This document shows positions 1 through 4,999 of a DNA stretch of 4,999 bases, piece after piece; position 1 is the stretch's first letter; each line of letters opens with the position of its first letter. The stretch is taken from IMG/VR virus record IMGVR_UViG_2695420792_000003. The stretch is one strand, 5' to 3'. A program made the position numbers and the translations under genes. The notes beneath the pieces are model-generated. The model saw nothing but the letters and a program-made list of their open reading frames with translations. It was not told the DNA's origin and did no database searches. The DNA is from a virus. Its lineage: Duplodnaviria > Heunggongvirae > Uroviricota > Caudoviricetes.

Positions 1-2
1 AG

Positions 3-155
3 AAAAAGCTTATTATGCTTCCATCGGAAACGATGATCTGGCAGCCTGAGTTCACAGATAAAACACTCTCCAGGAAACCCGGGGCGGTTCAACAGAGCGC
101 GAGCAATCCTCGCCAGAGAAACGGCACATGTAAAATTCCAGCCGTGGCTGGATGA
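3..155 (+). CDS. Possible 3-prime end of an upstream ORF entering the window (unknown product)
   Basis: Frame 3 is open from the window edge to a TGA at 153-155; a terminator-like hairpin follows about 70 nt downstream. No homology recognised; could be non-coding. Confidence 0.2.
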   Translation, partial: KKLIMLPSETMIWQPEFTDKTLSRKPGAVQQSASNPRQRNGTCKIPAVAG

Positions 156-223
156 TAAGTGGAGTCGAGTGTTACCATAATTCCGTCAGAATCTGTTCCA
201 ATAAAGTCACTAGTTAGAAATAC

Positions 224-262
224 TGCCAGCATTCTACGATGACGGAAGTGCTGGCATTTTTT
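224..262 (+). terminator. Candidate rho-independent terminator
   Basis: GC-rich inverted repeat, GCCAGCA at 225-231 pairing with TGCTGGC at 249-255 (extendable to about 10 bp with one G-U pair), loop of about 13 nt, followed by a T-run at 257-262. Confidence 0.45.
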
Positions 263-380
263 GGGTAATATGCGAGTCCATTTCATAAAATACGGGTGCT
301 GTAAACTGGACGATATAATCTAAAATATACCATTACCAGTAGCGTTCAAATCGCTATGTGCCGATACGGATAAAATTATA

Positions 381-409
381 TTGATTGTGCACATACCTTA
401 TTGGATATT
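381..409 (+). promoter_or_regulatory. Candidate sigma70-type promoter for the 439-948 gene
   Basis: TTGATT (381-386), 17-nt spacer, GATATT (404-409) in an AT-rich tract about 30 nt upstream of the start codon. Each hexamer matches consensus only 4 of 6; alternative hexamer pairs exist nearby. Confidence 0.25.
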
Positions 410-438
410 ACTGAGGGGTATTTATATAAGGTGTAACG

Positions 439-948
439 ATGATGTGGAACTTTGACAGTGCCGACTTAAGTGCAATAGCAGCAGGTATTTCTGCGTTTGG
501 CACATTAGCCGCAGCGGGGTCGGCGCTTGCAAGTTGGTACACGTCAAAAAAAGCGCTGCAGCTACAAAATAGAGTTTACCTTTATGAGTCTTTAAAGGCT
601 TGCGCTGAGAGAGCCAATTCATCAGCTAAAGATAAGCGCGGATCTGAATGGAGCGTTAATGATGCAGCGGATATCATCAGGTGCCTAGTACGGGCGATGG
701 AGATCATCAAGCAGGATAGCCAGCAGAAAGAAGGTAATCAGGCATTAATGTTGAAACAGTACTTTGTTAATCTGCTAATAATGGAACTGTACGAGGAAGT
801 TCATAACGGTGATGCGGCTGATTCTGTTTTTAAAAGTACGGAACCTACACAAGTACTTGATAACTTATGGAGCAAATGGCAGGAGGCTATAGCTTTTTTT
901 GATATTTGGAATTACCCAGTTGCGACTGAGGAAGACTTGGCAGACTAA
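439..948 (+). CDS. Hypothetical 169-aa protein with one N-terminal hydrophobic (transmembrane or signal-anchor) segment; unknown function, moron-like accessory gene
   Basis: Intact ATG-to-TAA ORF. SD-like AAGGTG at 428-433, 5 nt upstream of the ATG. Hydrophobic stretch DLSAIAAGISAFGTLAAAGSALASWY, then a charged soluble domain with an acidic C-terminus. Visibly lower GC than the downstream tail genes; upstream terminator and promoter-like elements. No homology recognised from memory. Confidence 0.75.
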   Translation: MMWNFDSADLSAIAAGISAFGTLAAAGSALASWYTSKKALQLQNRVYLYESLKACAERANSSAKDKRGSEWSVNDAADIIRCLVRAMEIIKQDSQQKEGNQALMLKQYFVNLLIMELYEEVHNGDAADSVFKSTEPTQVLDNLWSKWQEAIAFFDIWNYPVATEEDLAD

Positions 949-1044
949 TTTTCAGCACATTTGATTTCCAATAATCAACCAGCCATAATCATGCCATTGG
1001 GGCCTGAACAACTCCGGTGACTTCTGCGCTAAACGGGGACGTTT

Positions 1045-1146
1045 ATGCGCACATACAATCCAACCTCTCTTCTCCATTCACAGATGCAGAAATGCACCTG
1101 CGATATTTTGCATCCAGCGTTTGATCTCTGCGGAGGTGAAGCGTGA
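1045..1146 (+). CDS. Very short ORF (33 codons) whose stop overlaps the start of the NinB-like ORF (GTGA overlap); may be a remnant or leader peptide
   Basis: ATG at 1045 preceded by GGGGA (1035-1039); TGA at 1144-1146 overlaps the GTG at 1143-1145. Too short to judge coding potential; contains an inverted repeat. Confidence 0.15.
1084..1113 (+). repeat. Imperfect inverted repeat (ATGCAGAAAT ... ATATTTTGCAT) upstream of the NinB-like start
   Basis: Arms at 1084-1093 and 1103-1113 are near reverse complements, separated by GCACCTGCG. AT-rich stem, so unlikely to be a terminator; possible protein-binding site or RNA structure. Confidence 0.2.
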
Positions 1147-1397
1147 ACCTCCCACAAGATGGTATCAAATTGCATCGCGGTAACTTCACCGCTATCGGTC
1201 GGCAGATCCAGCCTTATCTGGAGGACGGCAAATGCTTTCGCATGGTGCTTAAACCGTGGCGCGAGAGACGCAGTCTTTCCCAGAATGCACTCAGCCACAT
1301 GTGGTACAGCGAAATCAGTGAATACCTCATCAGCAAGGGTAAAACGTTCGCCACTCCAGCTTGGGTATCCGCACCGGCGGGCGCGTGCTGGCGGTAA
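1143..1397 (+). pseudogene. NinB-like N-terminal fragment (lambdoid nin-region recombination protein family), truncated by fusion to J-derived DNA
   Basis: GTG start with GGAGG (1132-1136) 6 nt upstream. Translation contains RERRSLSQNALSHMWYSEISEYL, resembling the lambda/P22 NinB motif RNRSLDQNRKLWACLGDVSRQV at the same distance from the N-terminus. The frame ends at 1397 after reading into J-derived sequence; only about 65 residues look NinB-like. Confidence 0.5.
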
Positions 1398-2329
1398 ACA
1401 GCCAGACCCGGACGCTGACGCTCGACCGTGAAATCACGCTGCCATCTTCCGGCACCACGCTGATAAGCCTGGTTGACGGGCAGGGGAGTCCGGTCAGCGT
1501 GGAGGTTCAGTCCGTCACCGACGGCGTGAAGGTGAAAGTGAGCCGTGTTCCTGACGGCGTTGCTGAATACAGCGTATGGGGGCTGAAGCTGCCGACGTTG
1601 CGCCAGCGCCTGTTCCGCTGCGTGAGTATCCGTGAGAACGACGACGGCACGTATGCCATCACCGCCGTGCAGCATGTACCGGAAAAAGAGGCCATCGTGG
1701 ATATTGAGAACACCCCTGACGGCATGCAGAGTCAGGTGCTGCTGGCGGCGGACAGGATTGCGATGGTTAATCCTGCGAATGGCAACACAAAACCGATGTT
1801 TGTTGGTCAGGGCGATCAGATATTCATGAACGACGTGTTCCTGAAACGCCTGACGGCCCCCACCATTACCAGCGGTGGAAATCCACCGGCATTTTCCCTG
1901 ACACCGGACGGAAAGCTGACCGCTAAAAATGCGGATATCAGTGGCAGTGTGAATGCGAACGCCGGGACGCTCAACAATGTCACGGTAAATGAAAACTGTA
2001 CGATTAAGGGCATGCTGGAGGCGACTCAGGTCAGAGGTGACTTCGTTAAAGCTGTATCCAAATCATTCCCGAAACAGGCTGGTACGTGGGGTAATACGGA
2101 AACACCAAACGGGACGGTTACAGTCACCATCAGCGATGATCATAACTTTGACCGTCAAATCATTATTCCGCCCATTATCTTTAACGGAATAGCGTATAGC
2201 GATCCGGGAAGTGGTAATAACCGATGCTGCAGGCTCAGCACGTGCCGCCAGCACGTCAGCCGGACAGGCCGCGTCGTCGGCTCAGTCAGCGTCTTCCAGC
2301 GCAGGAACGGCATCGACAAAGGCCCGTGA
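1361..2329 (+). pseudogene. J: Fragment of the lambda J-type central tail fibre / host specificity protein, internally deleted and missing both its N-terminal part and its C-terminal receptor-binding end
   Basis: Frame 2 (open from 1343) encodes [95 protein letters not shown] and later [63 protein letters not shown], matching lambda J as I recall it. There is no ATG (the track start is a TTG). The last 36 codons before the stop at 2327-2329 are stf DNA read out of frame. Confidence 0.85.
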
Positions 2330-4999
2330 AGCAGCAAAAAGTGCTGCTGCAGAGTCCTCAAAAAGCGCGGCAGCTACCAGTGCCGGTGCGGCGAAAACGT
2401 CAGAAACGAATGCGGCAGCGTCACAACAATCAGCAGCCACTTCTGCATCCGCCGCGACCACGAAGGCGTCAGAAGCAGCCACCTCAGCCCGGGATGCGGC
2501 GGCCTCAAAAGAGGCAGCGAAATCATCAGAAACGAACGCATCATCAAGCGCCAGTAGTGCCGCTTCCTCGGCAACGGCGGCAGGCAATTCCGCGAAGGCG
2601 GCAAAGACGTCTGAGACAAACGCCAGGTCTTCTGAAACGGCAGCGGGACAGAGCGCCTCGGCTGCGGCAGGCTCAAAAACAGCGGCTGCGTCGTCTGCCA
2701 GTGCCGCGTCAACAAGTGCCGGGCAGGCCTCAGCCAGTGCCACCGCCGCCGGAAAATCGGCAGAAAGCGCCGCATCGTCTGCTTCAACAGCCACAACGAA
2801 GGCTGGCGAAGCCGCTGAACAGGCCAGCGCAGCAGCGAGGTCTGCATCCGCAGCGAAGACATCCGAAACGAACGCGAAAGCCTCGGAAACCAGTGCAGAA
2901 TCCTCAAAAATGGCAGCTGCATCGTCCGCCAGTTCGGCGGCGTCATCGGCATCATCTGCGTCTGCTTCAAAAGATGAGGCGAGCAGACAGGCATCAGCAG
3001 CGAAAGGCAGCGCCACGACAGCATCCACGAAGGCGACAGAGGCAGCTGGCAGTGCGACGGCGGCATCTCAGAGCAAAACTACTGCTGAATCCGCTGCGAC
3101 CCGTGCGGAAGCTGCTGCTGATCGTGCTGAAGAGATTGCCGGTGCAGTTGCGATGGAAGACGCAAGCCTTACAACTAAAGGTGTTGTGAAACTTAGCAGT
3201 GCTGTTGATAGCACCAGTGAATCGCTGGCCGCAACGCCAAAAGCAGTTAAAGCAGCCAATGACAATGCGAATAGCAGGGTGCCATCTAACCGAAAAGTTA
3301 ACGGAAAAGCACTGACTGCGGATATAACATTAACGCCGAAAGATATTGGTACTTTAAATTCAGTAACGATGTCTTTCTCTGGCGGGGCTGGGTGGTTCAA
3401 ACTGGCTACGGTTACCATGCCACAAGCGAGTTCCATCGTTTACATCGCATTGATTGGTGGCGCTGGTTACAACGTCGGTTCCCCACATCAGGCAGGCATT
3501 TCAGAACTGGTTCTACGAGCAGGCAATGGAAACCCCAAAGGAATTACCGGGGCTTTGTGGAAGCGTACAGCCGTCGGATTAACGAATTTCGCCTGGATCA
3601 ACACATCCGGCGATACATATGATATTTACGTTGAGATTGGCAATTATGCGACGAGTGTAAATATCCATTGGGATTGTACTGCAAATGCGTCAGTTTCTGT
3701 TTATACCTCGCCAACATATTCAGCGAGTAAGCCTTCCAGCGTTACCTATGGTGTTGTTTATACGATGTATAGCTCACATCAGAAACCTACACCATCAGAT
3801 ATTGGAGCACTGCCAACAACCGGAGGAACAGTTTCAGGTCCGTTGTCTGTTACAGGTGGATTAACTGGTTCATTGAATGGTAATGCAAGTACAGCCACGA
3901 AATTGCAGACGGCAAGATCTATCGGTGGAGTTGTTTTCGACGGTTCTGCAAATATTAACCTTCCAGGTGTAAACACTACGGGTAATCAGAACACCACTGG
4001 TAATGCTGCAACTGCTACAAAACTCCAGACTGCAAGAAAAATATCCGGTGTTCCATTTGATGGTTCCAAAGATATTACTTTAACCGCCGCGCATGTGGCT
4101 GCTTTTGCCAGAAGGGCAACGGATACATATGCCGATGCGGATGGTGGCGTTCCCTGGAATGCCGAATCAGGCGCTTACAATGTCACCCGCTCTGGCGACA
4201 GCTATATTCTGGTTAACTTCTATACCGGAGTCGGAAGTTGCCGGACCCTGCAGATGAAGGCGCATTACAGAAATGGTGGTCTGTTCTACCGTTCTTCAAG
4301 AGACGGTTATGGTTTTGAGGAAGGCTGGGCAGAAGTTTATACCTCGAAAAATCTTCCACCAGAAAGCTACCCAGTCGGCGCACCAATCCCGTGGCCATCA
4401 GATACCGTTCCGTCTGGTTATGCCCTGATGCAGGGGCAGACTTTTGACAAATCTGCTTACCCGAAACTTGCAGCCGCTTATCCGTCAGGCGTGATCCCTG
4501 ATATGCGTGGCTGGACGATTAAGGGCAAACCTGCCAGTGGTCGGGCCGTATTGTCTCAGGAACAGGACGGCATTAAATCGCACACCCACAGCGCCAGCGC
4601 ATCCAGTACGGATTTGGGGACGAAAACCACATCGTCGTTTGATTACGGAACCAAATCCACGAATAACACCGGGGCGCATACCCATAGTATTAGCGGGACC
4701 GCAAATAGTGCCGGTGCGCACCAACACAAGAGTTCCGGTGCATTTGGTGGCACGAACACGAGCATTTTCCCTAATGGTTATACCGCGATTTCAAATCTAA
4801 GCGCGGGGATTATGAGCACAACAAGCGGTAGTGGCCAGACTCGTAATGCAGGGAAGACATCATCAGATGGTGCTCATACCCACTCGCTGTCCGGCACTGC
4901 TGCAAGCGCAGGCGCACATGCACATACTGTCGGTATTGGTGCTCATACGCACTCCGTTGCGATTGGCTCACATGGACACACCATCACCGTTAACGCTGC
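2193..4999 (+). CDS. stf: Side tail fibre protein, Stf / StfR-like (lambda Stf family with T4 gp37-like C-terminal tip); 5-prime end replaced by the J fragment, 3-prime end runs past the window
   Basis: Frame 3 is open from the TAG at 2190-2192 to the window end. Translation [18 protein letters not shown]...AAKTSETNA...TATKLQTAR...[72 protein letters not shown]...[11 protein letters not shown] matches lambda Stf and E. coli StfR as I recall them. The only start-like codons in frame are a GTG at 2211 without a good SD and an ATG at 2910; the normal Stf N-terminus is absent. By my recall of the lambda Stf C-terminus, about 20 codons remain beyond the window. Confidence 0.9.
2230..3130 (+). repeat. 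Ala/Ser/Thr-rich low-complexity shaft repeat zone of the tail fibre (recurring AAK(T/S)SETNA units)
   Basis: Four copies of the AAK[TS]SETNA unit, at about 2389, 2514, 2599 and 2851, within GCN-rich sequence. The zone is free of stop codons in several frames on both strands. Confidence 0.7.
3885..4082 (+). repeat. Two tandem copies of a roughly 40-residue phage tail fibre repeat
   Basis: [26 protein letters not shown] (about 3885-3962) and [26 protein letters not shown] (about 4005-4082), period 120 nt. Conserved at the protein level but diverged at the DNA level. Confidence 0.7.
4581..4979 (+). other. C-terminal tip region with seven His-x-His motifs (gp37-like putative metal-binding receptor-binding needle)
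   Basis: In frame: SHTHS, AHTHS, AHQHK, AHTHS, AHAHT, AHTHS, SHGHT, between codons at 4581 and 4979. Confidence 0.7.

What the first reader, a model, noticed from the sequence alone, without database searches (positions are those of the whole stretch)
439..948. Unrecognised 169-aa membrane-anchored protein in a moron-like cassette
This is the only intact, well-initiated gene in the window. It has one hydrophobic segment (about residues 10-33) followed by a roughly 135-residue charged domain ending ATEEDLAD. It is AT-rich relative to the flanking phage genes, has an SD-like AAGGTG, a candidate promoter and an upstream terminator-like hairpin, and lies upstream of the NinB-like fragment where I would expect replication or ren-type genes in lambda. 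I recognise no homolog. Small single-pass membrane proteins carried as prophage morons are often superinfection-exclusion, abortive-infection or other host-conversion factors, so this is the best candidate for an undescribed function. That functional guess is inference only.
Basis: partly seen in the sequence, partly recalled or inferred. Interest (0 to 1): 0.62.

Follow-up and report, generated by a model that had tools for sequence, protein, structure and literature searches.

The report
Uncharacterised membrane-anchored accessory protein of lambdoid prophages
The ORF is a real, conserved gene of temperate enterobacterial phages (catalogued as PHROG 1779, function unknown) that probably encodes a small protein tethered to the inner membrane; it is a fair but unexceptional candidate for a phage-conflict function, and nothing here shows what it does.

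Summary
Window 439-948 (+) is an intact 169-aa ORF; the start conserved in other alleles is ATG 442. It has an SD, an upstream intrinsic terminator and low GC (43.9% against 53-55% in the flanks). The window is a decayed e14-like lambdoid prophage at icd in E. coli.

The protein is not an orphan. It matches PHROG 1779 (unknown function) over its full length. It occurs in about 3% of complete E. coli genomes, in two inducible phages, and in only about 35 clusters among 1.84 billion representatives. It is under purifying selection (dN/dS about 0.1). No Pfam, NCBIfam, PADLOC or PDB sequence match was found, and no fold match.

Every homologue has one Ala/Ser/Gly-rich hydrophobic helix with an acidic N-flank and a basic C-flank. 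A four-TM fusion relative supports an N-out/C-in topology, with a cytoplasmic helical bundle and an acidic C-terminal tail.

The gene always sits in variable accessory slots of early operons and is always co-oriented with them. A promoter-like element is conserved in the clade upstream of ninB.

The function is unproven. My best guess is a stand-alone membrane-tethered conflict protein of the exclusion or abortive-infection type. An early lytic host-takeover or counter-defence role is almost as likely. Interest is moderate to low.

The parts
1..91 (.). End of an IS3-family insertion sequence (context, not part of the gene). It interrupts the Rha/antirepressor remnant in this strain.
   Evidence: Window 1-95 matches 24,778 places in 4,073 E. 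coli genomes under 'IS3 family transposase'. All other copies of the cassette match the window only from base 89.
89..180 (+). 3' remnant of the upstream Rha / P22AR-C-terminal antirepressor-like gene (stop TAA 178-180).
   Evidence: Annotated 'P22AR C-terminal domain-containing protein' in identical genomes. Full-length 'Rha protein' lies at the same place in PhiR26_1 and PhiR5_1.
224..262 (+). Intrinsic-terminator-like hairpin plus U6, downstream of the Rha remnant.
   Evidence: Fold dG -20.3 kcal/mol, z -3.0, 0/200 shuffles as stable. Missed by the scanner because the loop exceeds 8 nt.
381..409 (+). Promoter-like element TTGATT-17 nt-GATATT. The left edge of sequence shared with a homologue in a different context (L045) is at about 363.
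   Evidence: The -35 TTGnnn and -10 GATATT (TATAAT in L005/L006) keep their register in 9 of 10 diverged leaders while the spacer varies. It is only 8/12 to consensus and was not reported by the scanner. There are no expression data.
428..433 (+). Shine-Dalgarno AAGGTG.
   Evidence: Read from the sequence; 5 nt before ATG 439 and 8 nt before ATG 442.
439..948 (+). ORF169 (WP_000990013.1; PHROG 1779). The conserved start is probably ATG 442.
466..537 (+). Residues 10-33: Ala/Ser/Gly-rich hydrophobic helix, predicted out-to-in membrane anchor, with a conserved stripe of small residues (A15, S18, A24, A29, S32).
   Evidence: KD and flank-charge analysis of 31 homologues; conservation; four-TM fusion relative P0042; AlphaFold helix 7-63.
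538..924 (+). Residues 34-162: basic juxtamembrane KK, conserved ALQLQ stalk and an all-alpha bundle (helices 73-94, 101-112, 115-123, 129-132, 138-154). Predicted to be cytoplasmic.
925..945 (+). Residues 163-169: conserved acidic C-terminal tail T-E-E-D-L-A-D.
   Evidence: Invariant T163, E165, D166, L167, D169 in A1. Kept in most distant members but lost in some.
960..1122 (+). Conserved 'pre-ninB' linker. In many E. coli prophages a second copy (85-91% identical) lies about 1.9 kb upstream, so the Rha+ORF169 module is bracketed by direct repeats.
1143..1367 (+). N-terminal fragment of NinB/YbcN, fused at about 1364 to a tail-tip (J) fragment. This marks the deletion that made the prophage defective (context).
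   Evidence: Annotation of identical genomes; ORF list.

Best explanation
ORF169 is a genuine stand-alone accessory gene of temperate enterobacterial phages (PHROG 1779).

**Product (predicted)**
- A bitopic inner-membrane protein.
- An acidic periplasmic N-tail of about 9 residues.
- One weakly hydrophobic Ala/Ser/Gly-rich transmembrane helix with a conserved stripe of small residues, which suits helix-helix packing.
- A basic juxtamembrane stretch.
- A cytoplasmic helical bundle of about 120 residues, of unassigned fold.
- A conserved acidic C-terminal peptide.

**Gene organisation**
- In the Escherichia/Enterobacter clade the gene travels as a compact unit of about 590 bp (promoter-like element plus gene), slotted immediately upstream of ninB.

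**Inferred mechanism (not shown)**
- It acts alone as a membrane-tethered conflict module.
- The cytoplasmic domain and tail bind a phage or host factor at the inner face of the membrane.
- The small-residue TM helices then self-associate, or engage a membrane partner, to block or abort a membrane-linked step of a competing phage's infection. This would be exclusion or abortive-infection type.

**Sub-claims and my confidence**
- Real gene under selection: 0.97.
- Membrane anchor with C-in topology: 0.7.
- Dispensable accessory/conflict role: 0.6.
- Exclusion/Abi specifically: 0.3.
For: - **Real and constrained.** Full-length PHROG 1779 match. All 31 aligned relatives hit that PHROG. dN/dS is 0.08-0.16. 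The ORF is intact in nearly all loci.
- **Sparse, patchy distribution typical of accessory genes.** 176 of 5,426 complete E. coli genomes, 2 of 50,697 phage records, 35 clusters in 1.84 billion representatives, 3 of 185,579 species representatives.
- **Membrane anchor.** The hydrophobic segment is conserved in 31 of 31 relatives. The N-flank is never positive (net 0 to -4) and the C-flank is always positive (net +1 to +4). The fusion relative P0042 has loop K/R counts of 5/1/5/1/>=3, which makes the family segment an out-to-in TM.
- **Self-contained unit.** Similarity to L045, which has a different upstream context, starts at window 363 and ends at the stop codon. The -35/-10 register is conserved. 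There is an upstream terminator and low GC.
- **Conflict-type neighbourhood.**
  - PD-lambda-1 lies in the same ren-ninB slot in PhiR26_1.
  - Abi_2, DinI and a cloacin/immunity pair lie near P0017.
  - A retron RT with SLATT lies near P0027.
  - phd-doc lies next to the P1-like plasmid homologue.
- **Survival in a decayed prophage.** The gene is intact here although Rha, NinB and J are truncated and an IS has landed 350 nt upstream.
Against: - No experiment or expression datum exists, and no paper mentions the protein.
- No match to any PADLOC defence model, to SieB or to any Pfam family.
- The gene is co-oriented with the early operon in every context. It is tightly packed or overlapping in distant members. 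Known defence genes in the same slot are anti-oriented.
- The promoter-like element is only 8/12 to consensus and is absent from distant members.
- The remnant prophage copies are 100% identical between strains, so intactness here carries no evidence of selection.
- Hydrophobicity of this particular allele is borderline (KD 1.59).
- Guilt by association in a cargo hotspot is weak evidence.
Confidence: 0.35

Rival explanations
1. Early lytic-cycle accessory factor. The gene is transcribed as part of the N-antiterminated pR (or pL) delayed-early operon. From the inner membrane it modulates a host process or neutralises a host defence, for example a membrane protease, the divisome, or a membrane-bound defence effector. 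This would be analogous in logic to lambda CIII, Kil, Ral or Gam.
For: - Co-orientation with the early operon holds in all 16 distinct contexts: the pR arm after replication genes, the pL arm between recombination genes and xis/int, and the P1-like plasmid early-type block.
- Intergenic gaps are -4 to about 110 nt in many members, including a 4-nt overlap with the upstream gene in L055.
- Neighbours are classic early 'ea/nin' accessory genes: Ead/Ea22, DUF551, DNA_pol3_theta/HOT, DinI, methyltransferases.
- Terminators inside this region (lambda tR2) are normal for N-dependent operons, so the hairpin at 224-262 does not by itself insulate the gene.
Against: - A conserved promoter-like element and a discrete module boundary at about 363 in the pre-ninB clade suggest independent expression.
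- From my own knowledge, described anti-defence proteins are mostly small and soluble; a membrane anchor is unusual for them.
- No similarity to any characterised host-takeover protein.
Confidence: 0.3
2. Not a membrane protein. The Ala-rich N-terminal helix is a soluble oligomerisation element (an Alacoil-type coiled coil) or only a transient, SAR-like membrane association. The protein would then work as a cytoplasmic oligomer.
For: - The segment is 71% Gly/Ala/Ser/Thr and only borderline hydrophobic in this allele (KD 1.59; summed biological-scale dG +2.7).
- AlphaFold draws one continuous helix 7-63 running into the bundle.
- Small residues recur with a 3-4 spacing.
Against: - Most relatives are clearly more hydrophobic (KD up to 2.5, dG down to -1.2).
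- The flank charge asymmetry holds in all 31 relatives: the N-flank is never positive and the C-flank is always positive.
- The relative P0042 places the same segment as the fourth of four hydrophobic segments, with alternating loop charge.
Confidence: 0.15
3. Lysis-related protein (holin, antiholin or spanin-like) that has been displaced from the lysis cassette.
For: From my own knowledge, an N-terminal weakly hydrophobic Gly/Ala/Ser-rich helix resembles SAR domains, and the size and helical content resemble i-spanins.
Against: - The gene is never found in a lysis cassette. In every locus the holin, endolysin and spanin genes are elsewhere and complete.
- The charge distribution predicts N-out/C-in, the opposite of SAR endolysins and i-spanins.
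- No Pfam or PHROG lysis family hit. One of 31 members gave a chance-level hit to a 'hol-like' PHROG at E 0.0065.
Confidence: 0.04

Closest known systems
Lambdoid 'morons' (e.g. lambda lom/bor, HK97 gp15), as defined by Hendrix and colleagues (my own knowledge)
   Same: - It is an extra gene between two genes that are adjacent in relatives (lambda ren-ninB).
- Its GC content is lower than its surroundings.
- It has a promoter-like element of its own.
- It is absent from most related phages.
- It encodes a small membrane protein.
   Different: - There is no convincing terminator of its own downstream.
- It is always co-oriented with, and in distant members embedded in, the early operon.
- Expression in lysogens has not been shown.
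P22 SieA (inner-membrane superinfection-exclusion protein; PMC10883804)
   Same: - Similar size: SieA is 162-164 aa.
- Phage-encoded inner-membrane protein that acts alone.
- SieA sequence types are very divergent, so lack of sequence similarity is not decisive for function.
   Different: - SieA is predicted to have three TM segments and works at the membrane/periplasm on the ejection-protein conduit (PMC10883804). ORF169 has one hydrophobic segment, and about 80% of it is predicted to be cytoplasmic.
- No direct comparison with a SieA sequence was made here; the scans of all Pfam-A families found nothing consistent.
- The genomic position is different.
Lambda/P22 SieB (abortive-infection-type exclusion, encoded inside the early-left region)
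   Same: - Encoded within an early operon region of lambdoid phages.
- About 180 aa, with N-terminal hydrophobic segments and a larger soluble part.
- Acts alone.
   Different: - The hhalign comparison of the family profile with lambda SieB gave probability 0.05%.
- No Pfam hit.
- Lambda sieB runs rightward, on the strand opposite to N and the rest of the leftward early genes around it. ORF169 is always co-oriented with its operon.
SAR (signal-anchor-release) domains of phage endolysins, pinholins and T4 RI (my own knowledge)
   Same: The N-terminal helix is dominated by Gly/Ala/Ser/Thr (71%) and is only weakly hydrophobic.
   Different: - Flank charges and the P0042 fusion indicate N-out/C-in, so the bulk of the protein stays in the cytoplasm.
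- It is not in a lysis cassette.
- It has no catalytic or holin partner.

Membership tests
PHROG 1779 (phage protein family of unknown function) | Full-length match to the family profile | tested here: met
   E 1.2e-102, residues 1-169 on profile positions 1-169 of 169. All 31 relatives also match.
Moron (autonomous extra gene in a lambdoid genome) | Lies between genes that are adjacent in related phages | tested here: met
   In lambda, ren and ninB are separated by 73 nt. Here, and in PhiR26_1 and PhiR5_1, the gene lies directly upstream of ninB/ybcN.
Moron (autonomous extra gene in a lambdoid genome) | Base composition differs from the neighbouring phage genes | tested here: met
   ORF 43.9% GC and leader 37.2%, against 53-55% in the flanks.
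Moron (autonomous extra gene in a lambdoid genome) | Own promoter, active in the lysogen | tested here: inconclusive
   An 8/12 sigma-70-like element at 381-409 has conserved hexamers and spacing in diverged loci. It falls below the scanner threshold, there are no expression data, and it is absent in distant members.
Moron (autonomous extra gene in a lambdoid genome) | Own terminator downstream | tested here: not met
   The only candidate is a weak 5-bp terminator-like site at 1085-1102, which lies inside the shared pre-ninB linker. The strong hairpin at 224-262 is upstream and belongs to the Rha gene.
Known anti-phage defence systems (PADLOC-DB v2.0.0) | Significant match to a defence-protein model | tested here: not met
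   No hits for the window protein at E<=10. Across 31 relatives there are only scattered, mutually inconsistent hits at E>=0.0018.
SieB superinfection exclusion | Sequence or profile similarity to SieB | tested here: not met
   No Pfam family at all for the window protein. hhalign of the family profile against lambda SieB gave probability 0.05%.
SieA superinfection exclusion | Polytopic (three-TM) inner-membrane protein of about 160 aa | tested here: not met
   There is only one hydrophobic segment; the rest of the protein has a KD maximum of 0.85. SieA features are taken from PMC10883804.
Lysis proteins with a SAR/N-terminal anchor (SAR endolysin, i-spanin, antiholin) | N-in/C-out topology and location in the lysis cassette | tested here: not met
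   The N-flank is acidic or neutral and the C-flank basic in 31 of 31 relatives. The P0042 fusion is consistent with C-in. The gene is never adjacent to holin or endolysin genes.
Any solved or predicted fold family | Structural match above noise | tested here: not met

The most novel reading that the evidence does not exclude
PHROG 1779 is a previously unrecognised single-gene, membrane-acting anti-phage (exclusion or abortive-infection) family with a new all-alpha fold. A cytoplasmic sensor domain would trigger oligomerisation of a small-residue transmembrane helix. The family is carried by lambdoid, P22-like and P1-like temperate phages.
Probability: 0.25. Interest if true: 0.6.

Novelty: new member of a known kind. 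Interest (0 to 1): 0.35.

Why it matters
If it has a conflict function, it would add a compact one-gene membrane module to the list of prophage-borne exclusion, abortive-infection or counter-defence determinants. It has no homology or fold match to anything known.

It would also mark the ren-ninB junction, and the equivalent pL-arm slot, of lambdoid phages as a place to mine for more such genes.

It is experimentally easy: 0.6 kb, two inducible phages carry it, and K-12 lacks it. If it proves to be an early housekeeping-type accessory gene, the result is of routine annotation value only. Thousands of PHROGs are in the same uncharacterised state.

Tried and rejected
**Sequence searches of the protein**
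- Pfam, NCBIfam and PADLOC found nothing.
- The same libraries run on all 31 relatives gave only inconsistent noise.
- PDB sequence and profile searches gave nothing significant. The single profile hit was a designed TM coiled coil at E 6.5, which is not evidence.

**Structure searches**
- Two AlphaFold models were made: pLDDT 71.6 with 14 sequences and 82.9 with 31 sequences.
- The afdb50 library was unavailable.

**Specific comparisons**
- The profile comparison with lambda SieB was negative.

**Literature**
- Searches by accession, PHROG id, phage name and peptide string all returned no papers.
- The lambdoid Chi-hotspot paper has no occurrence of 'PhiR', 'PV3405' or ninB, so it does not describe these phages.

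**Ideas considered and dropped**
- An obligate partner gene. Rha is the upstream neighbour only in the E. coli lineage, and other lineages have unrelated neighbours, so no conserved partner exists.
- A conserved RNA hairpin in the leader. The shared 3' arm GAGGGG pairs with differently placed 5' arms in different lineages, and the hairpin is weak in the window allele. I could not treat it as one covarying structure.
- Intactness in the decayed prophage as evidence of domestication. The remnant is 100% identical across strains, and the one 97.5% copy carries the identical protein.
- A cleavable signal peptide (A-L-A|S at residues 29-32). The n-region is acidic and Lys-Lys follows the site, so I rejected it on these established rules; no predictor was available.

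**Technical failure**
- The search for related loci with the wide alignment failed because it had no conserved stretch to search with.

Full report
**What the window is.** The window is 100% identical over bases 89-4999 to chromosomes of several E. coli strains. In strain E2 the region lies in a defective e14-like lambdoid prophage integrated at icd. The gene order there is:
- int, xis ... exo;
- an O fragment, P, Ren, EmrE, a small ORF and a serine recombinase;
- a 99-aa 'P22AR C-terminal domain' remnant and the 169-aa hypothetical protein WP_000990013.1;
- a 33-aa ORF and a NinB/YbcN N-terminal fragment fused to a tail-tip (J) fragment;
- side tail fibre, tail-fibre assembly protein and McrBC-like genes.

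In the strain that supplied the window, bases 1-91 are in addition the end of an IS3-family element.

**The observation.**
- The ORF at 439-948 is as described.
- AAGGTG is at 428-433.
- Codon 439 is ATA in other alleles, so ATG 442 is the conserved start.
- The ORF is 43.9% GC and its leader 37.2%, against 53-55% for the neighbouring phage DNA.
- A canonical terminator hairpin with a U6 tract lies at 224-262 (dG -20.3, z -3.0).
- The gene is the only complete sizeable gene inside the window, but frame 3 is open from 2193 to the window end (side tail fibre).

**It is a real gene family, already catalogued but uncharacterised.**
- The protein matches PHROG 1779 ('unknown function') end to end (E 1e-102).
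- The exact sequence is on at least 1000 contigs, always named 'hypothetical protein'.
- A word-indexed search of 5.8 billion proteins found 15 clusters.
- An exhaustive profile search of 1.84 billion representatives found only 35 clusters at E<=1e-3. The full-length ones are 153-179 aa, several are shorter fragments, and one is 288 aa.
- All 31 aligned relatives hit PHROG 1779 and nothing else consistently.
- Pairwise Nei-Gojobori estimates give pN far below pS throughout, and dN/dS of 0.08-0.16 where dS is not saturated.
- About 3% of complete E. coli genomes (176 of 5,426) carry the cassette.
- Two inducible phages, PhiR26_1 and PhiR5_1, carry it.
- Named hosts include Escherichia coli, E. 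albertii and E. marmotae, Enterobacter cloacae, E. hormaechei and E. asburiae, Scandinavium, Phytobacter and Raoultella.

**Anatomy of the protein.** The features below are conserved:
- a short acidic/aromatic N-tail (M-x-W ... D-W);
- a helix of about 20-24 residues rich in Ala, Ser and Gly, with S32 invariant and A15, S18, A24 and A29 nearly invariant among close relatives. Small residues recur every 3-4 positions;
- a basic S-K-K followed by A-L-Q-L-Q;
- motifs L-K-x-x-A-E-R-A-N and W-x-Φ-x-D-A-A-N-I;
- K-x-Y-F ... L ... E, then (P)-P-D-S-Φ-F, then W ... F-F;
- usually a terminal T-[DE]-[ED]-D-L-x-D.

AlphaFold2 with the 31-sequence alignment gives mean pLDDT 82.9. The model has one long helix (7-63) leading into an all-alpha bundle (73-154) and a short terminal helix (164-168). 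No structural neighbour rises above generic helical repeats.

**Is it membrane-anchored?**
- The hydrophobic segment is present in all 31 relatives (Kyte-Doolittle 19-residue maxima 1.5-2.5). No other part of any member approaches that value.
- The N-flank is never positive (net 0 to -4) and the C-flank is always positive (net +1 to +4).
- By the positive-inside rule this predicts N-out/C-in.
- An independent check comes from the 288-aa relative P0042. It has three extra, strongly hydrophobic segments in front, with K/R counts in successive loops of 5/1/5/1/>=3. This makes the family segment the out-to-in fourth TM and puts the conserved domain in the cytoplasm.
- The window allele is at the weak end (KD 1.59; 71% Gly/Ala/Ser/Thr). 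A soluble or transient association therefore cannot be excluded.

**Genomic context.**
- In PhiR26_1 and PhiR5_1 the order is O-P-Ren-[variable cargo, including PD-lambda-1 on the opposite strand]-Rha-ORF169-NinB.
- In lambda, ren is followed after 73 nt (tR2) by ninB.
- Homologues of 44-79% identity from Enterobacter, Scandinavium, Phytobacter and metagenomic prophages lie directly upstream of ninB/ybcN in most cases, behind quite different upstream genes. L051 has one small ORF in between, and in L050 the downstream gene was not identified as ninB.
- More distant members lie in four other settings:
  - after O/P-type replication genes;
  - in the early-left arm between recombination genes and xis/int;
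  - next to xis/int and a retron-SLATT pair;
  - in P1-like phage-plasmids immediately upstream of phd-doc.
- In every one of 16 distinct contexts the gene is co-oriented with the surrounding early genes.
- No partner gene is conserved.

**The mobile unit and its regulation.**
- In many E. coli prophages the roughly 1.9-kb segment [small ORF-Rha-ORF169] is bracketed by direct repeats (85-91% identical) of the 'pre-ninB' linker, window about 960-1122. This is the signature of modular exchange at a conserved junction.
- The smaller unit shared with L045, which has a different upstream context, runs from window 363 to the stop codon.
- Within it, TTGATT(381-386)-17-GATATT(404-409) aligns with TTGCTA/TTGCCT/TTGCTT-17-GATATT in diverged loci, and with TATAAT (TGATATAAT in L006) in the Enterobacter and Phytobacter loci. 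The spacer sequence changes.
- This conservation is the best evidence for a promoter of its own. It is only 8/12 to consensus and was not called by the scanner.
- An inverted repeat brackets or follows the -10-like hexamer in several lineages but is weak in the window allele. Its meaning is open.

**What it most likely does.** Shown:
- it is a conserved, dispensable, sparsely distributed phage gene;
- its product has one conserved hydrophobic helix and a helical domain of unassigned fold;
- it sits in cargo slots of early operons, where defence and toxin genes also accumulate.

Inferred: a bitopic N-out/C-in inner-membrane protein whose cytoplasmic domain and acidic tail bind something, and whose small-residue TM helix packs against itself or a membrane partner. 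I see two readings:
- I rank a stand-alone conflict function of the exclusion or abortive-infection type first (0.35 as a package, about 0.3 for that specific mechanism). My reasons are the membrane anchor, the self-contained promoter-gene unit and the neighbourhood.
- An early lytic host-takeover or counter-defence role is almost as likely (0.3). My reasons are the strict co-orientation and the tight packing in early operons, whereas the bona fide defence genes in the same slot are anti-oriented.

Less likely readings are a non-membrane oligomer (0.15) and a displaced lysis protein (0.04).

**Comparison with what is known.**
- It behaves like a lambdoid moron in position and composition, and possibly in having a promoter. 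It lacks its own downstream terminator, and lysogenic expression has not been shown.
- It is not SieB.
- It is unlike SieA in topology (PMC10883804).
- It matches no PADLOC defence model.
- It is not a lysis protein, by either topology or location.
- Its only demonstrable family membership is PHROG 1779.

**Verdict.** The gene is a legitimate, cheap-to-test candidate, but it is one of very many uncharacterised phage accessory families, and nothing found here is surprising to a specialist. Interest 0.35.

Noticed in passing
window 1-91: End of an IS3-family insertion sequence (multi-copy: 24,778 places in 4,073 E. coli genomes). Homology of all other cassette copies starts at base 89, so a 3-bp overlap (TCA) may be the target duplication. 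The IS interrupts the Rha/P22AR remnant about 350 nt upstream of ORF169.
   Followed up: partly
window 960-1122; second copy e.g. L008 4599-4750, L002 4653-4750: The conserved linker upstream of ninB is present twice (85-91% identity) in many E. coli prophages and brackets the roughly 1.9-kb Rha+ORF169 module as direct repeats. This looks like a junction used for modular exchange. The same linker occurs upstream of ybcN in DLP12 of K-12.
   Followed up: partly
window 388-425; L048, L051, L004, L005, L006 leaders: An inverted repeat/hairpin is associated with the -10-like hexamer. In L048, ATACCCTGA-N12-TCAGGGTAT has the hexamer in the loop (dG -15.3, z -3.5). In L005 and L006, CCCCTC-N8-GAGGGG lies just after TATAAT (z -3.5 and -7.0). 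It could be an operator, or a terminator that forms only in read-through transcripts. It is weak in the window allele.
   Followed up: partly
window 1143-1367 joined to 1364-2221: The N-terminal 75 codons of NinB/YbcN are fused to an internal fragment of the tail-tip protein J. This deletion removed the whole late region and explains why the prophage is defective.
   Followed up: no
L001 12567-14681 (NZ_CP104509 2038835-2040949): An emrE-like SMR efflux gene, a small ORF and a 508-aa serine recombinase sit between ren and the truncated Rha gene. This looks like further cargo, possibly a recombinase-borne insertion, in the same hotspot.
   Followed up: no
L045 6001-6510 (IMGVR_UViG_2778261465_000005) and protein P0002: An allele with 79% identity has a frameshifted N-terminal region that destroys the hydrophobic helix. 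It is either a pseudogene or a sequencing error.
   Followed up: no
L087 4920-5384 (pS51_2, NZ_CP015997) and nine similar 93-98 kb plasmids: P1-like phage-plasmids carry a 154-aa family member (35% identity) immediately upstream of phd-doc, inside a block of lambdoid-type early accessory genes (Ead/Ea22-like, DUF551).
   Followed up: partly
L050 3599-5929: Three co-oriented ORFs of 267, 213 and 282 aa lie directly upstream of the homologue in a metagenomic prophage. They were not annotated here and might be a defence-type cargo operon.
   Followed up: no
window 401-436: A short upstream reading frame (TTG 401 ... TAA 434-436) ends 2 nt before ATG 439. In L048-type alleles the equivalent frame is open and fuses to the gene, which explains the 177-182-aa predictions (P0003-P0006).
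   Followed up: no
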